In this document: positions 10,364 through 55,357 of the stretch, piece by piece
How positions within the stretch are numbered: position 1 is the first letter of the stretch
Layout of the letters: the number at the start of each line of letters is the position of its first letter
Source of the DNA: Dehalococcoidia bacterium
GTDB taxonomy: Bacteria; Chloroflexota; Dehalococcoidia; Plut-88900
Direction of reading: 5' to 3'
Assembly: GCA_965207225.1 (NCBI GenBank)
Contig: CBDBLV010000004.1
Coordinates: forward strand, 544,001 to 608,000
Length of the DNA stretch: 64,000 bases
Position numbers and translations under genes: made by a program
The notes under the pieces: model-generated
The model's input: the letters and a program-made list of their open reading frames with translations, nothing else
Told to the model about the DNA's origin: nothing
The model's database searches: none

Positions 10364-11296
10364 ATGCTTATTGCGGGCAAAAAGACCAGGGTAGGCATCG
10401 CCGTACCCCAGATGTTTCCATACGGACCTGTCGACATGAATCTCGTTGCCGAGCACCTGGCTCTAGTCGAGTCTCTCGGATATGACAGCGTGTGGACGCA
10501 AGACTCGGTCCTCGGCACCATGGACACTCTCGATCCTTTTACACTACTCGCTTACGCTTCCACCGTCACCGAAAGGGTTGGGCTCGGTATCTCCGTCCTG
10601 GTTACACCCTTCCAGAACCCCATCCATCTCGCCAAGATTTCCGCCAGCCTCGACCAGCTGTCCAGGGGCCGGCTCATCCTCGGCGTAGGCATCGGTGGCC
10701 ACGAGGAGAAATACCCTGCCTTCGGCTTTGATGCCCGGCACCGGGTCACCCGCTTCGAACACACTCTTGAGCTTGTGAAACGCCTCTGGACCGAGACCTC
10801 CGTCACCTTCAAAGACCGATTCTGGAACCTCCGGAACGTCAGCATCAACCCTAAGCCTCTCCAGTCTCCCCGACCCCCCATCTGGTTTGGCGCTCACGCC
10901 GAGCCCGCATTGGAACGGGCCGTAAGAGTCGGCGACGGCTGGATGGGCGCCGGTTCTTCCTCGACCAATGCTTTCAAGCGCGCCATCGGACACATCCGCT
11001 CCTACATGGCGGAGGTGGGTCGGGATCCGACCACCTTCCCCCTCGGTAAGCGCGTTTACGTTGCAATTGACAACGACAAAGAAAGGGCCGCCCGACGCCT
11101 GGAAGAATGGTTCGACGGCTACTACCACGACGCTGAACGAGCCCGTGAGGTTGCAGTCTTCGGTTCCGAGGAAGAGGTGATTGACGGCCTGGGCCGGATC
11201 ATGGAGGAAGACCCCGACATGATTATGTTCAATCCCGTCTTTGACCTCATGGATCACGCCAAGCGTATCGCCGCCGACATTGTGCCCAAGCTTTAA
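10364..11296 (+). CDS. LLM-class flavin (possibly F420)-dependent oxidoreductase
   Basis: GYDSVW, ASLDQLSRGRLILGVGIG, PKPLQSPRPPIWFG. Confidence 0.9.
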   Translation: MLIAGKKTRVGIAVPQMFPYGPVDMNLVAEHLALVESLGYDSVWTQDSVLGTMDTLDPFTLLAYASTVTERVGLGISVLVTPFQNPIHLAKISASLDQLSRGRLILGVGIGGHEEKYPAFGFDARHRVTRFEHTLELVKRLWTETSVTFKDRFWNLRNVSINPKPLQSPRPPIWFGAHAEPALERAVRVGDGWMGAGSSSTNAFKRAIGHIRSYMAEVGRDPTTFPLGKRVYVAIDNDKERAARRLEEWFDGYYHDAERAREVAVFGSEEEVIDGLGRIMEEDPDMIMFNPVFDLMDHAKRIAADIVPKL

Positions 11297-17562: not shown

Positions 17563-18639
17563 TTACAAATCAGCTGCCGCTGGCTCCGCAAATGTTAACG
17601 CGCGTTTCGGGTTGTCTACCAGTATCCTCTGGATATCTTCTTCCTTAAATCCCTTGGCCCGCATCCTGGGGACCATGTATTCAAGAAAATAACAGTATCC
17701 TTGGCCCCCGTACTTTACCAGTTGGCTCTTCCTTGCTATGTCATGGGAGACCAAAAGCTGACCCCCGTGCCCCTCGCCTGTCAGCCACAACATCATGCTC
17801 AGCCGGTGAGCATCATTCATTATGTCTATATGAGGTGCCGACGGAAAATACGATGCCTCCTCTCCAAAGAAGTCGTACTCCAAGAAACATCCTGTCTCCG
17901 CCAGTTTCTTCAGTATCCTCTTGTCGAATACAGTCCGATCCAGGTGACCGATGATCACCCGAAAAAGGTTTGCCTCGGCTTCCTGAAGCACTTCCATGAT
18001 CTCTCCCGGAGCATTCTGATCTCTTCCTGGGTGTATCAAGATCGACGCTCCCGTAACCCTCTGCGCCCGAGCCGTAGCCCTTAACACCTTCCGTTCATTA
18101 GGCAGCAATGGCCAGGAACACCCGACCTCTCCCATTATCCCAGCCTTTACGCCCGTCCTGCCCACCCCTCTCATCACATCCCCGGCTATCTGCTCGGCGA
18201 GCGAGTCTTCACTCCTGTCATCCATATCGGGGGGATGCGTAGCACCGACATAGAAGGAGGAACCCATGATCACGTGCACCCCAGTGGCCCGGGAAATACG
18301 AGCCAGACCAACCGGGTCCCGACCGATACCAATGTTCGTAGCATCCACCAACGTCGAGCCGCCATACTGCTTGTACAACCCCACCTCAGCGATGATCGTC
18401 GATATGTCATCTAGCTTGGAATTGTCCTTGTTGTCTCCCTGCCCGTGATAAAGCCGACCCAGATCCTCCATGCTCACAGGAGCTTCGTATAGCCACCTCA
18501 GGCTTGCTCCCTGTGGCTCTTGTGATACCCCATCGAAAGACGACAACAGATGCTCATGGGTCATGGTCACCCCCAGCTCTTCCGGCTCTATCGGCCCGAG
18601 CACCGTCTGAACCTTTCCTGCGAGGCTCACTCCGTTCAT
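17563..18639 (-). CDS. phosphotriesterase-related (PTER-like) amidohydrolase
   Basis: THEH, GEVGCS, IHPGR, GHLDR, SHDI metal-ligand motifs. Confidence 0.9.
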   Translation of the reverse strand: MNGVSLAGKVQTVLGPIEPEELGVTMTHEHLLSSFDGVSQEPQGASLRWLYEAPVSMEDLGRLYHGQGDNKDNSKLDDISTIIAEVGLYKQYGGSTLVDATNIGIGRDPVGLARISRATGVHVIMGSSFYVGATHPPDMDDRSEDSLAEQIAGDVMRGVGRTGVKAGIMGEVGCSWPLLPNERKVLRATARAQRVTGASILIHPGRDQNAPGEIMEVLQEAEANLFRVIIGHLDRTVFDKRILKKLAETGCFLEYDFFGEEASYFPSAPHIDIMNDAHRLSMMLWLTGEGHGGQLLVSHDIARKSQLVKYGGQGYCYFLEYMVPRMRAKGFKEEDIQRILVDNPKRALTFAEPAAADL

Positions 18640-19700
18640 CCAGGCTCCGCAAATGTCAGCGCTCGCTTCGGGTTCTCCACCAGAATGCGCTGGATGTCGT
18701 CCTCCCGAAACCCTTTGATCCGCATCCTGGGTACCATGTATTCCAGGAAATACCCGTATCCGTGACCGCCGTATTTCACGAGGTGAGCCTTCTGGGCTAT
18801 GTCATGTCCCACCACTATCTGGCCCCCGTGCCCCTCGCTTATCAGCCACTCGATCACATTCAGACGCTGTGCGTCATTCATGATGTCTATATGAGGCGCC
18901 GGTGGATAATAGCTGACCTCCTGCCCAAAGACGTCGTACTCTAGGAAGCACCCCGTCTCAGCCAGCTCCTTTATCAGCCTTCTGTCGAATAGTGTCCTGT
19001 CCAGATGTCCGACTATCACCCGCGTTAGGTCAGCTCCTGCTTCCTTCAGAATCTCCATTATCTCCGCAGGGCACGACTGGTCCCGACCCGGGTGAATCAA
19101 TATCGGCGCCCCCGTCTCCCTCTGCGCCCGAGCCGTGGCTCTCAACACCTTCCTCTCGTTGGGATGTAGCGGGAAGGAACACCCCACCTCCCCCAGCACC
19201 CCCGACCGAACACCCGTGATACCCACACCATTCCTTACGTCTCTCACCATCTGACCCGTCAATGAATCCTCGGTCCTTTCGTCCATGTCCGCGGGATGCC
19301 GTGAAGCTACGTAAAAGGATGACCCCATGATGATGTGCACCCCTGTACCCCGGGAAATGCGAGCCAGCCCTACCGGGTCACGTCCGATGCCTATGTTCGT
19401 GGCATCCACCAGCGCAGAACCGCCGAATTGCTTGTATAGCTCTACCTCCTCGATGAGGGTCGAGATATCATCCAGCTTGGCGTTGTCGCTGTTAGGCCAT
19501 CGACCGTGATGAATCCAGCCTAGTATGCCCAGGCTGAACGGAGCTTCATATCTCCCCCTGTAGCTGGCCTCCTCGGGCACTGGAAACACGCCGTCAAAGG
19601 ATCCCAGGATGTGCTCGTGGGTCATGGTCGGCCCCAGGTCCCCAGGGTTTATCGGCCCGAGAACCGTCTGCACTCTACCGGCCTGGCTGACGCCCTTCAT
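18636..19700 (-). CDS. phosphotriesterase-related (PTER-like) amidohydrolase
   Basis: same motifs; tandem paralog. Confidence 0.9.
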   Translation of the reverse strand: MKGVSQAGRVQTVLGPINPGDLGPTMTHEHILGSFDGVFPVPEEASYRGRYEAPFSLGILGWIHHGRWPNSDNAKLDDISTLIEEVELYKQFGGSALVDATNIGIGRDPVGLARISRGTGVHIIMGSSFYVASRHPADMDERTEDSLTGQMVRDVRNGVGITGVRSGVLGEVGCSFPLHPNERKVLRATARAQRETGAPILIHPGRDQSCPAEIMEILKEAGADLTRVIVGHLDRTLFDRRLIKELAETGCFLEYDVFGQEVSYYPPAPHIDIMNDAQRLNVIEWLISEGHGGQIVVGHDIAQKAHLVKYGGHGYGYFLEYMVPRMRIKGFREDDIQRILVENPKRALTFAEPG

Positions 19701-19789
19701 GACCGCGTCCCCATGTTCGCTAGCTTGTATATATCAGAAGCTGACTGAACAGTCTTTCCTCAACCGGAGGAGACAAGCTGAAAGCCTTC

Positions 19790-20860
19790 TCATTCCTCCA
19801 CCGGCTCCACGAACGCCAGCGCCCGCTTCGGGTTGTCTATCAATATCCGCCAGATGTCCCTTTCATCAAATCCCTTGATACGCATCCTCGGCACCATGTA
19901 TTCCAGGAAGTAGCAATACCCGTGGCCCCCGTACTTCACCAGCCGGTTCTTCCGGGCTATGTCGTGCGAGACAAGCAGCTGACCCCCGTGCCCCTCGCTG
20001 ATGAGCCAGGCCAGCATGTTTAGCCTTTGTCCATCGTTGGGCATGTCGATGTGCGGCGCGGCCGGATAGAGCGAAGTCTCCTGCCCGAAGACGTCGTACT
20101 CCAGGAAGCATCCGGTCTCCGCAAGGTCTTTGAGTAGTTTCTTGTCGAAGATGGTCCTGTCCAGGTGGCCAACAATCACCCGCTTGGGGTCAGCCCCTGC
20201 TTCCAGCAGGATGGACATTATTTCCGCCGGGCTTGACTGGTCCCGACCCGGGTGTATCAGGATCGGAGCACCCGTTATCCTCTGGGCCCGGGCCGTGGCC
20301 CTCAGCACTTTCTGCTCGTTCGGGCGTAAGGGCCACGTGCACCCCACCTCCCCCATCACCCCCGACTTGATTCCCGTATTTCCCACACCTGTTAGGACAT
20401 CACTTACTATCTGATCGATGAGCGACTCCTCGCTTCTGTCATCCATGTCCGCGGGATGCGTCACCCCGACGTAGAACGACGACCCCATGATGATGTTCAC
20501 CCCCGTGGCCCGGGATATTCGCGTCAGGCCTATCGGGTCCCGACCCAGTCCCATGCTTGTGGCATCTACCAGCGCCGTGCCGCCGAACTGCTTGTAGAGG
20601 TTCACCTCTTCAATGATCGTAGGGATGTGGTCCAGCTTGGAGTTGTCTTTGTTTATCCCTCGACCGTGAAGCAGCCATCCTAGGATCTCGATGCTGAATG
20701 GGGCTTCCCACCTTGCCCTCTCACTCGCCTCCGTCGGCTCCTTGTACACCCCCACCGTCGAGACTAGCAGGTGTTCGTGGGTCATGGTGACCCCGAGATC
20801 ATCCGGGTCTATAGGCCCGAGTACCGTCTGCACCTTCCCGGCTAGGCTTTCACTATTCAT
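19790..20860 (-). CDS. phosphotriesterase-related (PTER-like) amidohydrolase
   Basis: same motifs; tandem paralog. Confidence 0.9.
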   Translation of the reverse strand: MNSESLAGKVQTVLGPIDPDDLGVTMTHEHLLVSTVGVYKEPTEASERARWEAPFSIEILGWLLHGRGINKDNSKLDHIPTIIEEVNLYKQFGGTALVDATSMGLGRDPIGLTRISRATGVNIIMGSSFYVGVTHPADMDDRSEESLIDQIVSDVLTGVGNTGIKSGVMGEVGCTWPLRPNEQKVLRATARAQRITGAPILIHPGRDQSSPAEIMSILLEAGADPKRVIVGHLDRTIFDKKLLKDLAETGCFLEYDVFGQETSLYPAAPHIDMPNDGQRLNMLAWLISEGHGGQLLVSHDIARKNRLVKYGGHGYCYFLEYMVPRMRIKGFDERDIWRILIDNPKRALAFVEPVEE

Positions 20861-23851: not shown

Positions 23852-23891
23852 CGCTCAATTCTATGTTTGTCCCAAAGGGGGAAGGGGCATT

Positions 23892-23918
23892 CCGCTCGCC
23901 CTGAGCGAAGTCGAAGGG
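23892..23918 (+). repeat. REP-like repeat family R1 (CCTGAGC..GTCGAAGG)
   Basis: CCGCTCGCCCTGAGCGAAGTCGAAGGG; related copies near 37852, 44950, 54590, 55146. Confidence 0.7.
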
Positions 23919-24014
23919 TCTCAAGAGCGGCGTAGGGTAGGTGGGGCAGGGCGCAATCACACGCTATAATGCCTCCACCGCGAGCCCTCTCACCCGACCA
24001 AAAAGGAGGCCCTC

Positions 24015-36576: not shown

Positions 36577-37740
36577 ATGCAGCAGAAAGTCGTGTCCGCC
36601 GACTGTCACATTGACCTTAGCTGGCTGCCCGAGGACCTGTTCACCACCCGGGCCCCGGCCCACCTGCAGTCCTCGATGCCCACGGTCCAGGAGACTGACG
36701 ACGGACGCTGGTGGAAGATTGACGACGCTGTCATCTCCCGGGTTGCCGGCTCGGGCTTCAGCGGGACCGCCGAAAAATACGTCCCGGGCGCATCCCTGCA
36801 CCTTGACCGGATGGAGCAGGAAGGCTTCTTCTCCGATGCAGCCAGGGGCCTCTACCACCCCACCACCCCCGAGCTCCGGCTCCGCGACCAGGACATCGAC
36901 GGCATTAGCGGCGAGGTGATCTACGGCATTCTCGGGGTTGCCAGCGGCTTTGCAGCAGGCGGAGACGCCGTACGCAACTCCGAGGTCCTGGCAACCGTTT
37001 ACGACATCTACAACCAGTGGGCCTCCGAGTTCTGTTCCACCAACCCCGAACGCTTCATAGGACTGGCCTGCCTCTCCAGCCACGACCCCCAGGTCGCCGC
37101 CCAACAGCTGTCCAGGGCCGCAGATCTCGGCCTACGCGGCGCCGAGTTCAACGTTTCCAGTGCATCCTCCCCCATCTACCAGCCGGAATGGGACGCCCTG
37201 TGGACCGTCTCAGCTGAGCGAAACATGCCCATCTCCTTCCACACCGTGGGCCTTCCATACCGAAAGCCCGACCCAGGCGCCCCCGAATACTGCGGCTACG
37301 TCGCTATGGGCATCAACTTCACCTTGTTCCAGCTCTCAGGCGCGGAGTTCTTGACCAGCATCATCCTCTCGGGCGCATGCTCCAACCACACCGACTTCAA
37401 ATTCGTGCTTGGGGAGTGTGGAGTGGGGTGGATTCCCTACGTCCTCCACAGGCTCGACCAGGAGTACAAGGACCGGCTTTTCCACCTGGAGCTGGAGATG
37501 GAGCCCAGCGACTACTGGCGTCGGCAGGGATACTCCACCTTCCAGGACGAGGTGATCACCCAGGAAGTCGTAGACCTCGTCGGCGAGTCCAACATCATGT
37601 GGGGCTCCGACTACCCTCACCCCGACGGCATCTGGCCCGAGTCCCGGCAGCTCCTCGAAACCAACCTCGCCAACCTCGACGAGGAGACCCGCACCAACAT
37701 AACCTACCGCAACGCCGCCGAACTCTACCGCTTCAACTAA
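36577..37740 (+). CDS. amidohydrolase_2 family protein
   Basis: SADCH, ISFH, GECGVGW, MWGSDYPH. Confidence 0.9.
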   Translation: MQQKVVSADCHIDLSWLPEDLFTTRAPAHLQSSMPTVQETDDGRWWKIDDAVISRVAGSGFSGTAEKYVPGASLHLDRMEQEGFFSDAARGLYHPTTPELRLRDQDIDGISGEVIYGILGVASGFAAGGDAVRNSEVLATVYDIYNQWASEFCSTNPERFIGLACLSSHDPQVAAQQLSRAADLGLRGAEFNVSSASSPIYQPEWDALWTVSAERNMPISFHTVGLPYRKPDPGAPEYCGYVAMGINFTLFQLSGAEFLTSIILSGACSNHTDFKFVLGECGVGWIPYVLHRLDQEYKDRLFHLELEMEPSDYWRRQGYSTFQDEVITQEVVDLVGESNIMWGSDYPHPDGIWPESRQLLETNLANLDEETRTNITYRNAAELYRFN

Positions 37741-37811
37741 CCCCTCTCCATCATCGCCCCCACCCTCAAGTTGGAATCGATCCCTTGGGGTCTGGGGCAG
37801 CCCCATCCCTC

Positions 37812-37899
37812 GTAGGGGCAGGTTTCATGCCTGCCCTCCCCGGTGGCGGGGCCGCTCACCCTGAGCGCAGTCGAAGGGTCGAGCGGGGGGAGGCTCGCG
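37812..37899 (+). repeat. REP cluster: GTAG-type REP plus R1 copy
   Basis: GTAGGGGCAGGTTTCATGCCTGCCCT hairpin, then CCGCTCACCCTGAGCGCAGTCGAAGGG. Confidence 0.65.
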
Positions 37900-38038
37900 C
37901 CCGCTAATCCGTAACGTTCTATCAGCAGACCGGGACGCCTACGCTTTCATCCCATAACCCCGCGAGGGATATCTCACGCCTGCCCTTAAGACCCACCTAT
38001 ATTCAACTACCCTCCCCACGCGGTATATTCCCCTCCGC

Positions 38039-40427: not shown

Positions 40428-40478
40428 GTCCCCTCTTATCCCCTCTCCCTTGATGGGAAGGGGTTAGGGTGAGGGTGG
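40428..40478 (-). repeat. CCCTCACCC/CCCTCTCCC-type palindromic repeat
   Basis: CCCCTCTCCCTTGATGGGAAGGGGTTAGGGTGAGGG, related to the purine-rich hairpin of element E. Confidence 0.55.
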
Positions 40479-40533
40479 TCCTATTCTGGGCTTCTTATTG
40501 TTGGATTATAGTCCCGACCCCCAGGTCGGGCCA

Positions 40534-44877: not shown

Positions 44878-44901
44878 TTCCCCCATCCCCGTCTCCCCAT
44901 C

Positions 44902-45105
44902 CCGTCATCCCCGCCACAGAGAGTCGGAATCCATCCCCGGGCGGTGAGGCCGCTCATGCTGAGAGGCCCTCTTAAGCATGCCCCGAGTCCCTCGAGGGGT
45001 ATGAGCGGGGGGGAGGCTCGCGTACAGTCCACCCGTCGCGCCCTTCCACATCCACTCCCCTCTCTGTCATCCCGAGGCCCCGCGAGGGATCTAGGACTTG
45101 CCCAC
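44902..45105 (+). repeat. ordered REP-like cluster R3-R1-R2
   Basis: GTCATCCCCG..GGAATCCA (44902), CCGCTCATGCTGAG..TATGAGCGG (44950), GTCATCCCGAGGCCCCGCGAGGGATCT (45064). Confidence 0.75.
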
Positions 45106-45159
45106 CTACATCTTTCCATGTCATACCTTCCCTTCTCCCCCGACCCCACCTCCCACCTA

Positions 45160-45194
45160 TTGATTTTGTAAATGTATGTGCTATACTTATGTTC
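45160..45194 (+). promoter_or_regulatory. sigma70 promoter with extended -10
   Basis: TTGATT-16 nt-TATACT with a TGn extension, in an AT-rich island. Confidence 0.6.
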
Positions 45195-45379
45195 GTGGCA
45201 CCGGCCTCGTTACCCGGGCCACCAAACCAGGAAAGGACTAAAGGAGTCCCATGAGCCGCATAGGCCTCACATGGCCCCGTCGCACCCGGTCGGTATGGGA
45301 CCGACCCTCTGCCGACACGCACCTCCTCCCCACTACCTTTCCGCCTACCGTGTCCCTCAGCCCTTCACCCTTCCCCCGT

Positions 45380-45808
45380 GGAAGTTCAAAGCCCAGCGCC
45401 CCCTCTCGACCACTGTCGTCCGGCGTCACTAAGGAGCCGCAACTTACCTTGCTGCCCCACCCGGACGTGGATGCCCGCGGTTTTCCGCGGAAGGACCCCA
45501 CCTGCGCCCATAGCGGCGTACGGATGGATGCCTGCTTTCACTCGCTGCAGATGTTCCCACGGCTAACCCCCGCGAGTGCCCCCCTCCGCCGTGGATGCCT
45601 GCCCAGGCTCGCCGCAGATGTATTTCCCACAGCTAACCCTTTGCGAGCTTTCCCCTCCGCTGTGGATGCCCGCGCCTTTGCGCGGAGGTACGCCCGCAAC
45701 GCCCTACCCGGCCTTGCGAAGATTGCCCGGGCCAACGCCCAGGCGATTGCCCACGTTCCAACCCCCGACGCCCCGGCTTACGCCGCAGAGGGGGCGCTGG
45801 CAACTTCC
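45380..45808 (+). ncRNA. candidate structured ncRNA domain (cassette 1)
   Basis: closing helices 45380-86/45802-08 and 45393-406/45787-800; tandem modules with covarying pairs. Confidence 0.5.
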
Positions 45809-45853
45809 TCATTTAGTTCCTCTTCCTCCTACGCCATCCCCTCCCTTATTCCT

Positions 45854-45970
45854 AGTACTGAACTAGAGGCAAGCGCCTGCGCCATGGCGCAGGCGCTTGC
45901 CTCTGTTTTTTCCTCCCCCTCTCCCTTGAAGGCCCTAAGGGAGAGGGGGATCAAGGGGGTAAGGGTTCCC
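45854..45970 (+). repeat. element E copy A
   Basis: AGTACTGAACT + perfect 40-bp palindrome 45865-45904 + CCCCCTCTCCC/GGGAGAGGGGG hairpin; homologous to 53789-53905 and 54905-55044. Confidence 0.85.
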
Positions 45971-46175
45971 CTCCCCGCCCCTTAAACAATCAAACCCATG
46001 CCTGAAACCCCAATTCAATCAAAACCTCCCTAGAATCCGGGAGTCCCTTCCCCCACAATTGAATGCCCCGGCCACCGTCCGACCCCCGGCCGCTTGACCT
46101 GAACGCCCATAGGCGTAACAATGGCGCCCACAGGCCGGTCTTTACCCAATCGACTAGACGCAGGGGGTGAACGGG

Positions 46176-51998: not shown

Positions 51999-53372
51999 TT
52001 AGGCGAGCTCTCGTTCCACATCCGAGAGCACCTTGTCCACCTGCCCGACCACGTAGTCGATCTCGTCTCGGGTGACGATGAGCGGGGGAATCAGGAATAT
52101 GATGTCGCCCCTCTGTCGGGCGAGGAGGCCGTGGCGGAGGAAGGCTGCGGTAATCTTTTGGCCGAGAGCTGCGTCTGCCGGGAAGCGCTCGCGGGTGTTC
52201 CTGTCCTTGACCAGCTCAATGCCGCAGAGGAGTCCCAGGCCGCCACGTATGTCTCCGACTATGGGGTGTTCGTAGAGGGTCTGTAGCTGGTCGAAGAGGT
52301 AGGCGCCCATCCTGGCGGAGTTCTCGACCAGGCCTTCGCGGTCGAGGATGTCCAGGTTGGCAAGCGCTGCGGCACAGGCGGCCGGGTGTCCGCCGAAAGT
52401 GAAGATGTGACGGAACATCTCGCGGTCGCCGCCAATGAAGGTGTCGGCGACTTTCCTGGTGGCGATGGCGGCGCCGATGGGCTGGTACCCGCTGGACAGG
52501 CCCTTGGCCCCGACCAGGATGTCGGGCACGAGGTCCCAGTGGTCGGAGGCGAACATCTTGCCCGTGCGACCAAAGCCTGTGACCACTTCATCGGCGATGA
52601 TGAGGACGCCGTAGCGGTCGCAGATGGAGCGGACGGTGGGCCAGTAGTCGGGGTGGGGGACGGTACAGGTGGCGGCGGAAAGGGGTTCGGCGACGAAGGC
52701 GGCGACAAGCTCGGGACCCTCGTCGAGGATGGCCCTCTCCACGTCCTGGCCGCACTGCAGGGTGCATTCGCCCATCTGGCTGCAATAGAGGCAGCGGTAG
52801 GGGTTGGGCATGGAGACGTGAACGTTGCCCGGCATCAGGGGTCCGAAGTCCTTGTCACCAGCGCCGGCCCCTCCGCCGAGGCTGATGGTGGCGAGGGTGC
52901 CGCCGTGGTATGAGCCGATCCTGCTTATGACCTTGTAGCGGCCCGGTTCGCCGCGGAGCTTGTGGTATTTCTTGGCCATTTTGAGGGCGGTCTCAATGCC
53001 CTCGGAGCCGCCGCTGACCAGGAAGACCCGGGACTCCTTGTCGGGGGCGAGGGAGGCGAGCTTTTCGACGAGGCGCAGTGCTGGCTCGTTGGTGGTGTGT
53101 TCCGGGGAGTAGTTGATCTTCACCAGCTGGTCTGCCACTGCGTCTGCGATCTCCCGACGGCCGTAGCCTACATTCTGCAGCTGCATCCCGGAGATGAGGT
53201 CGAAATAGCGGTTGCCGTGGATGTCCTCGACCCAACAGCCCTCTCCCCTTTCGACGATGTTGAGGCCGCCGGGCTGGGATAGCTCCGCGACCTGTTGGGA
53301 ATGAGGCCAGAAGTGGTCGGCGGCGATCTGCTGGAGCCGGTCGAAGCGTTCAGATGGGGTCGGGGATATCAC
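51999..53372 (-). CDS. aminotransferase class III (omega-amino acid/taurine:pyruvate-like)
   Basis: SGGSEG, SYHG, DEVVTGFGRTG, AKGLSSGY; start uncertain. Confidence 0.88.
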   Translation of the reverse strand: MISPTPSERFDRLQQIAADHFWPHSQQVAELSQPGGLNIVERGEGCWVEDIHGNRYFDLISGMQLQNVGYGRREIADAVADQLVKINYSPEHTTNEPALRLVEKLASLAPDKESRVFLVSGGSEGIETALKMAKKYHKLRGEPGRYKVISRIGSYHGGTLATISLGGGAGAGDKDFGPLMPGNVHVSMPNPYRCLYCSQMGECTLQCGQDVERAILDEGPELVAAFVAEPLSAATCTVPHPDYWPTVRSICDRYGVLIIADEVVTGFGRTGKMFASDHWDLVPDILVGAKGLSSGYQPIGAAIATRKVADTFIGGDREMFRHIFTFGGHPAACAAALANLDILDREGLVENSARMGAYLFDQLQTLYEHPIVGDIRGGLGLLCGIELVKDRNTRERFPADAALGQKITAAFLRHGLLARQRGDIIFLIPPLIVTRDEIDYVVGQVDKVLSDVERELA

Positions 53373-53451
53373 AACAGCAACCCTAAGATGCCGGTTTCCT
53401 GAGGAACGTTCGGAAAGGAGGGCAAGAAGCAGACTCAAAGAAAAAAGGCAC

Positions 53452-53567
53452 CCGGCGGCGACCTATTTTCCGCGGAGAGTTGCCCCTCTAGTATCGTCGG
53501 CGCAGAGGTGTTTCACTTCCGTGTTCGGAATGAGAACGGGTGGGCCCACCTCGCTATAGCCACCGCA
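53452..53567 (-). rRNA. rrf: 5S rRNA (stand-alone)
   Basis: GCGGUGGCUAUAGCG...CACCCGUUCUCAUUCCGAACACGGAAGUGAA...AAUAGGUCGCCGCC, canonical 5S motifs. Confidence 0.95.
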
Positions 53568-53587
53568 GTGCCTTTATTCAGGGACGA

Positions 53588-53616
53588 ATTCTACTATGAC
53601 ACCGATGTCGGCGCAA
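53588..53616 (-). promoter_or_regulatory. sigma70 promoter of the 5S gene
   Basis: TTGCGC-17 nt-TAGAAT on minus strand, about 20 nt upstream of 5S. Confidence 0.6.
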
Positions 53617-53788
53617 GGGCTTGTGTTCGTTCCGGAGGTTGGCGACATGCTAAGTCTCTATTCAGTTGTGGGGGGTGGGGTTTTGGTTGAACGTTGATTG
53701 AACTCGTAGCTGGTTTGATTGAATGACGCCTAAAGGGATTGCTGAGAATTTCGCGTGGTGCGGGGAGGGGATGCCTCCAGCCCCGCGG

Positions 53789-53905
53789 GGGAACCCTCAC
53801 CCCCTTGGTCCCCCTCTCCCTTGGGGCCTTAAAGGGAGAGGGGGAGAGAAGAACAGAGGAAGAGGTTGGCGCTGCAGCGCCAACCTCTTCCTCTAGTTCA
53901 GTACT
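53789..53905 (-). repeat. element E copy B
   Basis: perfect 40-bp palindrome 53855-53894 within conserved flanks. Confidence 0.85.
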
Positions 53906-54036
53906 GGTAAGAGGGGAGGGTATGACGCATAAGGAAGCGCAGGGCGTGGATTCCCGCTTGGGGGCCGGAATAGCGGGATTGGAAGTTATTCAGTTTGGGG
54001 GCACGTTGTCGGTTCTGTCTGTTGGGGTTTAGGGTC

Positions 54037-54495
54037 GGCGATGGAAGACGCACCTGGAGCGGTGACCCCGCAGGGTGTCGCTGGCCCGGCCGTACGGGGT
54101 CGGTCAGTCCGGTCCCGCCTCACTGGACGGTCGGACTGCGGCCGGCAGAAGCCCCTTTCTTTAGTGTCGGCTTGGAGGCGTCCCAGGGCTGGGGACGTGT
54201 CTCCGCCGCTGCCTAGATCTGGCTGTGTAGGCGGACATACGGGTCCGTCATCCGTCACAGGTTCCAATAAACGGGTTAGCTGCGCTGTAAGTGAATACAG
54301 GAAGGGGAATGTCCAGAGTCATGTCCCCACGCAGGAGTACGGGGTTTCCAGTTCGCCGCCTGTATCCAGGAACCCGGAGTGGCGGTCTGCCCAGTTTCAT
54401 TTGCTGAAGCGGACGGAGAGCCGAGCGGTCCTCGGCTACGGGCGACCCCGTTCCGCTCCTTAGGTCGGGTTGCTCCAGGGCGTCTTTCCATCGCC
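54037..54495 (-). ncRNA. candidate large structured ncRNA domain (cassette 2)
   Basis: 24-nt bulged closing helix 54472-95/54037-60; many internal helices with G-U pairs on the minus strand. Confidence 0.55.
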
Positions 54496-54534
54496 TGGGG
54501 GGACAGGGGAATGTGATGGGTCGGGACGATGTGG

Positions 54535-54771
54535 AGGAGATGGCGCCTTTCGCTTGTGCCGCAGGCCTCTCTTTTATCCGTTCTTAATACCCTTCGACAA
54601 GCTCAGGGCGAACGGAACGGAGAAGGCCGTTGGGATGGGCCAGGACGTTGAGTCCTCCGGGCGCCGGGATAGGAGATGGCGTCTGTCGCTTGTGCCGCAA
54701 CCTGTCCGCCTCACAAGGGAGGGGAGAGGCATTGGGATGGGCTTGGGCGTTGAGTCCTCTCGGGCGCCGGG
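54535..54771 (-). repeat. imperfect tandem duplication in cassette-2 leader
   Basis: AGGAGATGGCG..TCGCTTGTGCCGCA at 54535/54671; TTGGGATGGGC..CGTTGAGTCCTC..GGGCGCCGGG at 54630/54732. Confidence 0.8.
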
Positions 54772-54825
54772 GTTGTTCCCCTTGGGTTTTCGGGTTCCTC
54801 CTTAAGGTGGTGTCGGGTCTAGACT

Positions 54826-54861
54826 TAGAACAAATATAAAGCTCAAGTGTTTGCATGTCAA
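54826..54861 (-). promoter_or_regulatory. near-consensus sigma70 promoter
   Basis: TTGACA (54861-56)-17 nt-TATATT (54838-33); no credible CDS downstream. Confidence 0.7.
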
Positions 54862-54904
54862 GGGGTATGTTACGTTTATGGAGGGAATATCCCCCGGTCC
54901 CCCA

Positions 54905-55044
54905 GGAAACCCTCACCCCCTTGATCCCCCTCTCCCCCTCGAGGGACTCGGGGCAGGCTCTTAGGGCCTTTAAGGGAGAGGGGGAAAGAAGAACAGAGAC
55001 AGACGTGGGTGCGTTGCACCCACGTCTGTCTTTAGTTCAGTACT
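54905..55044 (-). repeat. element E copy C (with 24-nt insertion)
   Basis: 39-nt hairpin 54995-55033 within conserved flanks; insertion at 54937-54960. Confidence 0.85.
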
Positions 55045-55065
55045 GAGGGGACAGAACCCCGCCCC

Positions 55066-55357
55066 AGATTCCTCGCGGGGCATCGGAATGACAGTGAGGG
55101 GTGTGATTGGCTATGGAGGGATGCGACGGGTCGGCAGGATGTGGGCCTCGCCCCGCTCATACTTCGAGGGCCTCAGCACGAGCGGCCCCACCCCAGGGCA
55201 ATCCTTTGTGATTGCCGCTACGCGGGAGGGGATACCCCCAGCTCCACGGGATGGATTCCCGATCGGAGTCGGGAATGACGGATGTGAGGAGGGATGCCAG
55301 GGGTGAGGGACGTGAGTGGGCAAGTCCTAGATTCCTCGCGGGGCATCGGAATGACAG
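55066..55357 (-). repeat. ordered REP-like cluster R2-R3-R1-R2
   Basis: reverse-complement copies of the 44902-45105 repeats at 55316-57, 55248-81, 55146-85, 55066-94. Confidence 0.75.

What the first reader, a model, noticed from the sequence alone, without database searches (positions are those of the whole stretch)
54037..54495. 459-nt highly structured domain with strand-diagnostic G-U pairs
Seen on the minus strand: closing helix GGCGAUGGAAAGACGCCCUGGAGC / GCUCCAGGUGCGUCUUCCAUCGCC, whose arms differ by indels (like RNA bulges, unlike transposon TIRs). Internal helices: GGAGCGG-A-ACGGGG/CUCCGU-CCGCUUC enclosing AGCCGAG/CUCGGCU; GGGUUCC/GGAACCU around UGGAUACAGG/CCUGUAUUCA; CGUCCC/GGGACG; CAGUCCG/CGGACUG; CCGGCCG/CGGCCGG. 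A distal 9-nt match ACGGGGUCG/CGACCCCGU could be a switch or pseudoknot. Several pairs are G-U on this strand and A-C on the other, agreeing with the TTGACA-17-TATATT promoter. High GC content produces some helices by chance.
Basis: partly seen in the sequence, partly recalled or inferred. Interest (0 to 1): 0.8.

Follow-up and report, generated by a model that had tools for sequence, protein, structure and literature searches.

The report
Repeated promoter-driven structured-RNA cassette family
The 459-base folded stretch is real, but it is one of about 48 look-alike units in this uncultured sponge-associated bacterium, each with its own promoter, the same closing stem around one of a dozen different folded interiors, and a C/A-rich tail, a kind of repeated RNA gene not yet described.

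Summary
The domain at 54037-54495 (minus strand) exists and folds far better than shuffles, but on both strands (z -4.9 and -4.5). It is not unique. The genome holds 48 units bounded by the invariant helix base GGCGAUGGA/UCCAUCGCC, with at least 12 unrelated interiors. This one has a 97% twin. All 9 species of this uncultured Dehalococcoidia genus carry 17-33 pattern matches; 3 neighbouring genera carry none.

Each unit reads: terminator-like repeat, sigma-70 promoter (three unrelated variants, 40 of 48 units), AAGGAGG box, leader, closing helix, interior, G-poor C/A tail.

For this interior type, 37 copies support the minus-strand fold: 99.4% of cells paired, 5 compensatory pairs, and recurrent variants 20 compatible to 2 not (6 to 5 on the other strand). 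Contigs from RNA libraries of three studies cover it.

Units are present or absent at orthologous sites, and interiors differ between species at one site. No Rfam family, conserved ORF, target duplication or transposase partner was found.

Best reading: a new, recombining family of independently transcribed structured RNAs. Their function is unknown.

The parts
54880..55045 (-). Upstream copy of the abundant 'R1' repeat. It contains a terminator-like palindrome at 55031-54997. It probably insulates the unit from upstream transcription.
   Evidence: Direct repeats D1, D2 and D5 match 53764-53906. This stretch has 80-113 BLAST copies in the genome. The terminator-like hairpin has 16 pairs plus a T-rich tail on the minus strand.
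54833..54861 (-). Sigma-70-type promoter TTGACA-17-TATATT (variant P1). The -35 box is 54861-54856 and the -10 box is 54838-54833. The inferred transcription start is near 54826.
   Evidence: 11 of 12 matches, and the only such site in 53400-55200. The module has 12 copies in the genome. A promoter-like site lies 130-366 nt before the 5' arm in 40 of 48 units, against 87 of 2000 random 600-nt windows. It comes in three variants with unrelated spacers. The transcription start is inferred, not measured.
54797..54803 (-). AAGGAGG box (Shine-Dalgarno-like) near the predicted 5' end of the RNA. No start codon follows it.
   Evidence: Present upstream of 41 of 48 units, about 58-64 nt after the start of the -35 box. 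The sequence was read. Its role is inferred only: a 5' stabiliser, or the partner of the UCUCCUC box at 54535-54545.
54496..54826 (-). Leader. It carries the family-wide modules TGCGGCACAAGCG...GCCAUCUCCUC and ...CCCCUGUCCCCCCA. In this copy it has an internal duplication and an unrelated, widespread motif at 54589-54623.
   Evidence: Internal direct repeats are D3 (54619-54657 and 54721-54759) and D4 (54535-54563 and 54671-54699). The leader modules are shared with other units. The promoter lies 366 nt before the arm here, against 252 nt in the twin.
54472..54495 (-). 5' arm of the closing helix (GGCGAUGGAAAGACGCCCUGGAGC). The first 9 nt are invariant across the family.
   Evidence: (I2). Identical 22-mers occur at 7 places in the genome. 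All 48 units begin GGCGATGGA, preceded by ..CCA.
54061..54471 (-). Interior of type A, a multi-branched fold. The conserved core is element positions about 20-327. A 3' extension at about 328-444 is found only in this genome and G005.
   Evidence: 97% twin at G000:C5:911761-912219. 37-copy alignment A1. Consensus structure and pair counts. 6-copy alignment A2. RNA-library contigs cover 54049-54485 and parts of it.
54037..54060 (-). 3' arm of the closing helix (GCUCCAGGUGCGUCUUCCAUCGCC). The last 9 nt are invariant across the family.
53986..54036 (-). C/A-rich, G-poor tail (GACCCUAAACCCCAACAGACAG...AAACUGAAUAA). Homology among family members ends about 55-60 nt after the arm.
   Evidence: Flanks are conserved in all copies. 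The mean composition of the 60 nt after the arm in 48 units is C 23.7, A 23.3, G 8.3, T 4.7, in a genome of 60.6% GC. A Rho gene is present. Its function as a rut-like site is inferred.
53764..53906 (-). Downstream R1 repeat with two palindromes (53895-53854 and 53845-53809). It is the likely intrinsic terminator of this unit.
   Evidence: I1, 20-nt perfect arms; I4. (19 pairs plus tail TTCTTCTCTC on the minus strand). 100-123 copies in the genome.

Best explanation
The 459-nt domain is the stem-enclosed cargo of one member of a genus-specific family of self-contained non-coding transcription units. There are 48 units in this genome.

Each unit is built from interchangeable modules, in this order:
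- a terminator-like repeat;
- one of three sigma-70 promoters;
- an AAGGAGG box and leader;
- a closing helix whose outer 9 bp never change;
- one of at least 12 unrelated structured interiors of 200-550 nt;
- a G-poor C/A-rich tail.

Proposed working:
1. The promoter fires. This is inferred from conserved hexamers and spacing in three otherwise unrelated promoter sequences.
2. The RNA folds on the minus strand. For type A this is shown comparatively.
3. The long closing helix brings both ends together. Either it protects the interior from exonucleases, or it is cut by RNase III, as in rRNA precursors and Correia elements. Either way a stable, stem-capped RNA is released. This step is inferred.
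4. The unstructured C/A tail with Rho, and/or the next R1 hairpin, ends transcription. This step is inferred.

The invariant helix base and its fixed flanks (CCA before, GACCC after) most likely form one common handle for a single protein or nuclease. The interiors would be alternative effector domains.

The family spreads and reshuffles by recombination between its conserved flanks, not by classical cut-and-paste transposition. Present/absent sites and swapped interiors are shown; the mechanism is inferred.

What the RNAs do in trans is not known.
For: Family:
- 48 units in at least 12 interior types.
- The pattern CCAGGCGATGGAWGR occurs 17-33 times in each of 9 of 9 genus genomes and 0 times in 3 other genera of the family. 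Reversed-pattern controls gave 0.
- All 20 of 20 sampled pattern hits in relatives were complete units.

Transcription unit:
- 40 of 48 units have TTGACA-like/16-18/TAnnnT 130-366 nt upstream, against 87 of 2000 random windows. The three spacer sequences are unrelated and are shuffled among interior types.
- This copy scores 11 of 12.
- Terminator-like hairpins flank the unit.

RNA-level constraint on type A:
- 99.4% of 3386 cells are paired. 5 pairs and 20 cells show double changes, against 1.9 and 3.6 in shuffles (0 of 500 as high). Slid controls give 34-44% paired.
- Recurrent variants are 20 compatible to 2 incompatible on this strand, and 6 to 5 on the other.
- Distal hairpins differ in length and sequence between lineages but stay hairpins.
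- Differences from the 97% twin in CAGUCCG/CGGACUG and GACCCCG/CGGGGUC give G-U pairs on this strand.

No coding:
-.

RNA libraries:
- Contigs of 430, 194, 162/208 and 243 nt from 4 runs of 3 studies lie on the interior.

Turnover:
- 5S site: units in G000, G001, G006 and G008; none in G002 and G005.
- nusA site: a block of about 990 nt lies between a tRNA gene and the nusA promoter in 4 species and is absent in 5.
- recA site: three different interiors in three species, with 91% identical flanks.

Enzymes:
- Rho and RNase III genes are present.
Against: - No transcript ends, strand or abundance were measured. The RNA-library contigs are shallow (depth 3-9, against thousands for 5S) and DNA carry-over is not excluded.
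- 58 of 92 type-A pairs never vary, so covariation rests on few events among related copies.
- Three other interior types (E1, E2, B) show no strand asymmetry, and for E1 the opposite strand has the lower consensus energy.
- Restriction to one genus, copy-number swings and presence/absence polymorphism are what selfish DNA repeats show.
- The absolute invariance of the outer helix could equally be a DNA recognition site.
- No partner protein was found.
- 33 of 47 units point the same way as the next gene (using my own crude gene caller). This also fits a cis role.
Confidence: 0.5

Rival explanations
1. A purely DNA-level selfish repeat (MITE-like or BIME-like mosaic). The arms are terminal inverted repeats read by an unidentified transposase or recombinase. 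The folded interiors and promoter-like boxes are by-products with no RNA function.
For: The same arms bound 48 elements. The family is restricted to one genus and copy number per type differs widely between species. Sites are present or absent at orthologous positions. The outer 9 bp are invariant. E1, E2 and B fold equally well on either strand. Units cluster with another abundant repeat, R1, as pneumococcal repeats do (PMC10969869, passages).
Against: No target-site duplication: 0 of 48 for k of 3 or more. No ORF-bearing element has these arms. No TnpB or Y1 transposase is present. Conserved sequence runs beyond the arms on both sides, and no leader-tail junction occurs without arms. Structure is conserved along the whole length, with compensatory and G-U-preserving changes and strand asymmetry in type A. 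Three unrelated promoter sequences keep the hexamers and spacing.
Confidence: 0.2
2. A cis-acting mobile promoter or 5' module. The unit supplies a strong outward promoter and a structured, nuclease-resistant 5' domain to the gene downstream, as Correia elements do, and is kept for that reason.
For: 33 of 47 units are co-oriented with the next gene downstream, while the upstream gene is co-oriented in 21 of 47. Units sit 40-600 nt before start codons of often highly expressed genes: nusA, recA, def, a class-I Glu/Gln tRNA synthetase, mnmA, ribF, katG, fbp and 5S rRNA. Correia elements carry sigma-70 promoters and lie upstream of genes (PMC10969869, passages).
Against: In this copy a 19-pair terminator-like hairpin lies between the tail and the 5S gene, and 5S keeps its own promoter-like box. 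Downstream genes keep their own promoter-like sites. The 12 genes read downstream of type E1 units fall in 11 Pfam families, so no ligand- or pathway-specific control is evident. A promoter donor does not need a dozen conserved 200-550-nt folds. Orthologues in 5 of 9 species do without the unit.
Confidence: 0.15
3. Chance helices in GC-rich DNA, or a decayed protein-coding gene.
For: The genome is 60.6% GC. An open frame of 140 aa spans the element on the plus strand.
Against: z is -4.9 and -4.5 against dinucleotide shuffles. The element is conserved at 75-97% in 37 copies from several species. The open frame shifts strand and frame among copies. The only Pfam match is at E 0.09, below cut-off.
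Confidence: 0.01

Closest known systems
Correia elements of Neisseria (promoter-bearing MITEs)
   Same: Both are dispersed intergenic repeats bounded by inverted repeats. Both carry sigma-70-type promoters and are mostly found just upstream of genes. In Correia transcripts the paired inverted repeats are cut by RNase III (PMC10969869, passages seen).
   Different: Correia elements are about 100-200 bp with one interior. They have target duplications and promoters inside the element (partly recalled). Here the unit is 0.6-1 kb and the promoter lies outside the inverted repeats. There is no duplication (0 of 48). One invariant helix encloses at least 12 unrelated interiors. RNase III cleavage was not tested here.
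Pneumococcal BOX / RUP / SPRITE repeats and enterobacterial ERIC / BIME mosaics
   Same: Both have modular build, cluster with terminator-like repeats, are transcribed and have stable predicted RNA folds (PMC10969869, passages). Type B here has 2-3 tandem inner modules, like boxB repeats. R1 resembles a SPRITE-like terminator repeat.
   Different: Those modules are tens of bases long and lack their own promoter-to-terminator layout. That ERIC evolves under RNA-structure constraint is recalled, not checked. No sequence relation is known or was tested beyond Rfam.
Y RNAs with Ro60 (Rsr)
   Same: Works-like only. The 5' and 3' ends form a conserved helix that serves as a protein handle, while the interior varies between paralogues (recalled).
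   Different: No TROVE/Ro60 gene is present in this 92% complete genome. The RNAs here are 2-5 times larger and 48-fold repeated. No Rfam Y RNA match was found.
Multi-copy large structured RNAs tied to mobile elements (HEARO/IscB and TnpB omega RNAs, group II introns)
   Same: Both have hundreds of nucleotides of conserved structure present in many copies per genome.
   Different: No Rfam match to HEARO or to group I or II introns, even at E up to 10. No TnpB or Y1 transposase gene is present. The four RT genes lie elsewhere. The sequence after the fold is a conserved tail, not a variable guide.
rRNA precursor processing stems
   Same: A long helix formed by sequences flanking a structured RNA, a classical RNase III substrate (recalled). 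This unit lies next to the 5S gene.
   Different: The arms are not found beside the 23S or 5S genes. The flanks of the 16S gene were not located or checked. The units are separate from the rRNA genes, and two species lack any unit at the 5S site.

Membership tests
MITE (miniature inverted-repeat transposable element) | Terminal inverted repeats shared by many short non-coding copies | tested here: met
   Arms of 24 nt. 48 copies share GGCGATGGA...TCCATCGCC. No conserved ORF.
MITE (miniature inverted-repeat transposable element) | Target-site duplication directly flanking the inverted repeats | tested here: not met
   0 of 48 units have identical flanking k-mers for k = 3-8, and 2 of 48 for k = 2. 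Instead the flanks themselves are conserved (CCA before, GACCC after).
MITE (miniature inverted-repeat transposable element) | A related autonomous IS with the same termini, or a transposase able to act on them | tested here: not met
   No arm pair 0.8-6 kb apart encloses a candidate: 4 hits, all chance or spanning separate units. PF07282 and PF01797 gave 0 matches in the genome. Other transposase families were not searched.
MITE (miniature inverted-repeat transposable element) | Insertion polymorphism between related genomes | tested here: met
   5S site: 4 of 6 genomes filled. nusA site: 4 of 9. recA site: 3 of 9. The block between the tRNA gene and the nusA promoter is seen.
Any curated RNA family (Rfam 15: ribozymes, group I/II introns, HEARO, OLE, GOLLD, ROOL, raiA, RNase P, tmRNA, 6S, Y RNA, riboswitches) | Covariance-model match at or near the gathering score | tested here: not met
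   Whole window at gathering score: only 5S rRNA and one tRNA. Region 53300-55100 at E up to 10: only weak hairpin-type matches in the R1 palindromes. Other interior types: none.
Riboswitch or other cis-regulatory leader | One fold associated with one functional class of downstream genes | tested here: not met
   12 genes downstream of type E1 units fall in 11 different Pfam families: NusA, Amidohydro_2 (twice), MoaA-like, peroxidase, PrpD, CoA-transferase, deformylase, Amidohydro_3, FBPase, ATP-grasp and M24. Type E2 is equally mixed.
Invertible promoter segment (inverton) | The segment between inverted repeats is found in both orientations relative to its flanks | tested here: not met
   Same-strand-only clustering, with units oriented by the tail, puts all 14 E1, 10 E2 and 5 B copies in single clusters. 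All 25 type-A rows with flanks keep leader and tail on the same sides. Population-level read data were not examined.
Y RNA / Ro60 particle | A Ro60 (TROVE) protein encoded in the genome | tested here: not met
   PF05731 gave 0 matches in G000 (92.3% complete), while the control rings in Deinococcus.
IS200/IS605-type elements and their omega/reRNAs | TnpA (Y1) and/or TnpB/IscB gene in the genome | tested here: not met
   0 matches each.
Independent bacterial ncRNA gene | Own promoter and terminator, a conserved structure with covariation, and a detected transcript with defined ends | tested here: inconclusive
   Promoter and terminator-like sites are met. Structure with modest covariation is met for type A. 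A transcript is seen only as contigs from RNA libraries, with no ends or strand.

The most novel reading that the evidence does not exclude
These bacteria run a natural cassette system for structured RNAs. A fixed expression and processing scaffold (promoter, AAGGAGG 5' box, invariant closing helix read by one dedicated protein or nuclease, Rho-type tail) is loaded with a dozen or more unrelated 200-550-nt RNA folds. The folds are exchanged between about 20-50 chromosomal sites by recombination at the helix. This would make the family a new class of large bacterial ncRNAs or RNPs with interchangeable effector domains, not a transposon relic.
Probability: 0.3. Interest if true: 0.85.

Novelty: new variant of a known kind. 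Interest (0 to 1): 0.6.

Why it matters
If the units are what they look like, one uncultured symbiont genus spends about 48 strong promoters on at least a dozen large, conserved RNA folds that no database knows.

Large structured bacterial RNAs are rare and have usually turned out to be ribozymes or cores of RNP machines. A dozen new folds with a common handle would therefore be a rich source of new RNA biology, and a natural model of an RNA scaffold.

Even on the more sober reading, a selfish repeat, the family is unusual. It has no target duplication and no transposase. It has fixed flanks, three swapped promoters and swapped interiors at one site. That shows a way in which intergenic DNA is built and reshuffled in Chloroflexota.

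For annotation, these about 48 loci per genome, and the more than 100 R1 terminator-like repeats, should not be called as genes or pseudogenes.

Tried and rejected
- Known RNA families: Rfam at gathering score and at E up to 10 gave nothing for any interior type.
- Protein-coding or pseudogene reading: rejected.
- TnpB, Y1 transposase and Ro60: absent. RT genes are present but not near units.
- Riboswitch-like control: rejected because downstream genes are mixed.
- Inverton: rejected.
- Master element with an ORF, and target duplications: not found.
- An 'empty' leader-tail junction that would mark the stem-bounded part as an insertion into a larger repeat: none found.
- UNCG tetraloops in the variable hairpin of the relatives: I considered them as an RNA-specific mark and dropped the idea. 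On reading the register, the loop is a 3-nt loop closed by CCGCC/GGCGG.
- Strand by folding energy alone: undecided.
- Naive G-U count on a structure predicted from the same strand: biased, because each strand's own prediction uses its own G-U pairs and only 28 pairs are common to both.
- Strand asymmetry in types E1, E2 and B: none seen.
- Metagenome scan with a type-A 19-mer: one contig only (L160), not examined further.
- Genome-collection scan with the arm pattern: 62 of 80 listed loci are Dehalococcoidia MAG records. The 18 single hits in other taxa were not examined and may be chance.
- Literature: four full-text searches listed nothing on such a family in Dehalococcoidia or sponge symbionts. 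I saw listings only, except PMC10969869, of which I saw the passages. Supplements are closed. That the family is not in print rests on these four searches only.
- RNA lay: the bins over the promoter (54825-54881) and over most of R1 had no cover, and several contigs stop near 54474-54485. The many near-identical copies also break assembly graphs there, so I draw nothing from them.
- Runs labelled sponge or coral metagenome hold 0.20-0.40 of the sampled words.
- The binomial figure for 33 of 47 (about 0.004, one-sided) is my own arithmetic on my own crude codon-usage gene caller.
- Recalled and not checked here: STAB-SD-type 5' stabilisers, rut-site features, Y RNA anatomy, ERIC RNA constraint and Correia TA duplications.
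Full report
**The observation.** The arms 54472-54495 and 54037-54060 are 24 nt long and 75% complementary without gaps. With bulges they form 22-23 pairs. The minus strand folds at -209.5 kcal/mol, against -179.4 +/- 6.2 for dinucleotide shuffles (z -4.89, 0 of 100 as good). The plus strand does nearly as well (z -4.49). The structure is therefore not chance, but energy does not name the strand. The promoter is the only sigma-70-like site in 53400-55200: TTGACA-17-TATATT at 54861-54833 on the minus strand, with 11 of 12 matches.

**It is not alone.** BLAST of the element against its own genome found a 97% twin (G000:C5:911761-912219) and five further exact copies of the first 22 nt. Each of those is matched by the 3' arm 440-550 nt away, but around a quite different interior. 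A search with the invariant 9-mers GGCGATGGA and TCCATCGCC gave 50 pairs. Of these, 48 are units with family flanks. They fall into at least 12 interior types:
- E1, 14 copies, 307-311 nt;
- E2, 10 copies;
- B, 5 copies, with 2-3 tandem inner modules;
- F, 7 copies;
- A, 2 copies (this one and its twin);
- several pairs and singletons of 198-462 nt.

All of these are preceded by ..CCA and followed by GACCC and a C/A-rich stretch. The organism is an uncultured Dehalococcoidia MAG (record titles). The pattern CCAGGCGATGGAWGR occurs 17-33 times in each of the 9 genomes of the genus and not at all in 3 other genera of the family. Reversed-pattern controls gave 0. All 20 of 20 sampled hits in relatives were complete units of types E1, E2, s330, F or s428.

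**Anatomy of a unit.** Alignment of flanks shows that conservation runs well beyond the helix. Upstream lies a promoter-like site 130-366 nt before the arm in 40 of 48 units, against 87 of 2000 random 600-nt windows. It comes in three versions, P1, P2 and P3. Their spacers are unrelated, but their hexamers and spacing are kept, and they are shuffled among interior types. An AAGGAGG box follows in 41 of 48 units, with no start codon behind it. The leader ends in TGCGGCACAAGCG...GCCAUCUCCUC...CUUCCCUG..CCA. After the 3' arm, homology among copies lasts about 55-60 nt and ends near ..CCCCACAACNGAAUAA. These 60 nt average C 23.7, A 23.3, G 8.3, T 4.7, in a genome of 60.6% GC.

This copy is bracketed by two copies of a further repeat, R1 (54880-55045 and 53764-53906; more than 100 copies per genome). 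The perfect palindromes of R1 score as terminator-like on the minus strand (55031-54997 and 53895-53854). The leader of this copy has an internal duplication (D3 and D4). This explains why the promoter is 366 nt before the arm here and 252 nt in the twin.

The single 5S rRNA gene (53567-53450) lies downstream with its own promoter-like box. The 23S gene is on another contig.

**Is the fold selected, and on which strand?** Thirty-seven type-A copies from several species of the genus align at 77% mean column identity. RNAalifold gives 92 pairs. Of 3386 cells, 99.4% are standard pairs. Five pairs and 20 cells show changes on both sides, against 1.9 and 3.6 in shuffles (0 of 500 as high). Slid controls give 34-44% pairing. 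However, 58 of the 92 pairs never vary, and the structure was derived from the same alignment.

The two strands compare as follows:

| Measure | Given strand | Reverse complement |
|---|---|---|
| Pairs | 92 | 75 |
| Consensus energy | -91.7 | -72.4 |
| Compensatory pairs | 5 | 2 |
| One-sided compatible cells | 106 | 23 |
| Unpaired cells | 19 | 23 |
| Recurrent variants, compatible : incompatible | 20 : 2 | 6 : 5 |

This holds although the given strand is the C-rich one. The GGGUUCC/GGAACCU helix carries a CG to UA change (pair 153:272). The helix UAUG../..CAUA carries an AU to GC change (pair 276:307).

Distal hairpins differ in length and sequence between lineages but remain hairpins. One example is the tip after CCUGCA. 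Another is the hairpin inside CAGUCC/GGACUG in G005 compared with this genome. Against the 97% twin, the changes in CAGUCCG/CGGACUG are A-U to G-U and C-G to U-G.

For types E1, E2 and B the same crude test shows no strand asymmetry, and for E1 the opposite strand has the lower energy. The strand claim therefore rests on type A and on the promoters. No reading frame is conserved and no Pfam family matches.

**RNA evidence.** Of 23 public runs holding part of the stretch, four are metatranscriptomes from three studies. Laid at 85% likeness, their contigs cover the interior:
- a 430-nt contig lying wholly on 54049-54485 (X20, depth 8.7);
- 194 nt (X21);
- 162 and 208 nt (X22);
- 243 nt (X23).

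The 5S gene stands at depths in the thousands. These are contigs. They show neither strand nor ends, and DNA in the libraries is not excluded.

**Turnover.**
- Upstream of 5S, G000 and G001 have type-A-like units and G006 and G008 have other types. G002 and G005 have none, only about 240 nt of spacer.
- Upstream of nusA, a block of about 990 nt (R1, promoter, unit, tail) lies between a tRNA gene and the nusA promoter in G000. G008 and G007 also have E1 there, and G005 has another type. Five species have the tRNA gene about 30-45 nt from the nusA promoter region.
- Upstream of recA, G000 has E2, G008 has E1 and G007 has an s330-like interior. The G000 and G008 flanks are 91% identical over 1.2 kb up to about 57 nt inside the unit, and again from about 21 nt before its end.

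There is no target duplication (0 of 48 for k of 3 or more), no ORF-bearing element with these arms, no TnpB and no Y1 transposase. No leader-tail junction lacks arms. Interiors never appear flipped relative to their flanks.

**Neighbours.** 33 of 47 units point the same way as the next gene downstream, and 21 of 47 the same way as the upstream gene (my own crude gene caller). The 20 downstream genes I read are mixed: NusA, RecA, deformylase, a class-I Glu/Gln tRNA synthetase, MnmA, RibF, KatG-like peroxidase, FBPase, amidohydrolases, transporters and others. A type-specific cis-regulator is therefore unlikely. This copy lies between a methyltransferase gene (divergent) and 5S rRNA, an aminotransferase and aconitase.

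**How it most likely works.**

Shown:
- a conserved, repeated unit with promoter-like and terminator-like parts;
- a fold under constraint on the promoter strand for type A;
- presence in RNA libraries;
- gain, loss and interior exchange at fixed sites.

Inferred:
- The unit is an independent gene for a stable RNA.
- The closing helix joins both ends and either blocks exonucleases or is cut by RNase III. The RNase III gene is present.
- The C/A tail acts as a Rho entry site. The Rho gene is present.
- The AAGGAGG box stabilises the 5' end or pairs with the UCUCCUC box.
- The invariant 9 bp with fixed CCA/GACCC flanks are the handle of one unknown reader.
- Spread and exchange go by recombination between the conserved flanks.

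I give this reading 0.5, a pure DNA repeat 0.2, and a cis promoter or 5' module 0.15.

**Comparison with what is known.** The nearest kinds are promoter-bearing MITEs such as Correia elements and the modular pneumococcal BOX/RUP/SPRITE repeats (PMC10969869, passages). The family shares with them the inverted repeats, promoters, position before genes, clustering with terminator-like repeats and insertion polymorphism. It fails two defining MITE features, target duplication and an autonomous partner. It differs in size, in having the promoter outside the repeats, and above all in one invariant helix around a dozen unrelated, conserved folds. It works like Y RNAs in plan, but Ro60 is absent. No Rfam family fits. 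Four literature searches found no description. I therefore file it as a new variant of a known kind, dispersed transcribed intergenic repeats. A bolder reading, a cassette system for large structured RNAs, is left open at about 0.3.

Noticed in passing
window 53764-53906, 54880-55045; also 45819-46026 and 37773-37917: R1 is a repeat of about 150 nt with more than 100 copies in the genome. It holds perfect palindromes of 20 and 14 bp that score as terminator-like on the minus strand. It looks like a dispersed terminator module, comparable to pneumococcal SPRITE.
   Followed up: partly
window 53450-53567; G000:C5:49658-52796: The rRNA genes are single and unlinked. 5S stands alone here with its own promoter-like box, and 23S is on another contig. 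In G005 and G002 the 5S gene is preceded by TTGACC-17-TAGCAT only about 30 nt upstream.
   Followed up: partly
window 54589-54623: A short motif in this copy's leader (..CUGAGCUUGUCGAAGGG..) matches at 94-100% over 26-34 nt in genomes of other families of the class (L018-L020). It had the highest summed depth in the RNA-library contigs. It is a separate and much more widespread repeat.
   Followed up: no
G000 units, e.g. C5:1035557-1035866, C5:104961-105362, C5:1120495-1120712: Three promoter modules with unrelated spacers (P1 ..tgcaaacacttgagctt.., P2 ..cacctgtccgaccgtac.., P3 ..tctattacacccgtgc..) are combined freely with the interior types. The shuffling is modular.
   Followed up: partly
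G000:C3:216515-216588 (L003): An isolated 74-nt fragment, 85% identical to positions 246-319 of the type-A interior, lies outside any unit.
   Followed up: no
window 36777-37749, 44881-45802, 23878-23930, 40434-40481, 17582-20848, 10391-10695: Further stretches of the window are repeated elsewhere in the genome, from 2 to 46 copies. The 17.6-20.8 kb block is repeated 2-4 times and may be an IS or a gene family.
   Followed up: no
G000:C2:158087-158773, C5:1548409-1549095, C5:1553608-1554405, C5:1671488-1672288: Four reverse-transcriptase genes are present. Two sit in identical 586-aa open frames. None is next to a unit.
   Followed up: no
L184/L188 positions about 1925-2053; G000 nusA-upstream 983-1105: A conserved tRNA gene on the opposite strand marks the left edge of the nusA-upstream insertion site. 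In five species it lies about 30-45 nt from the nusA promoter region.
   Followed up: partly
G000 type F units, e.g. C3:167328-167681, C5:1005080-1005543: Seven units share the helix base but have different flanks (..CACCCUUUCCUCCA before, UACACCCC after). They lack the promoter module and the C/A tail. They may be a sister family or decayed copies.
   Followed up: no
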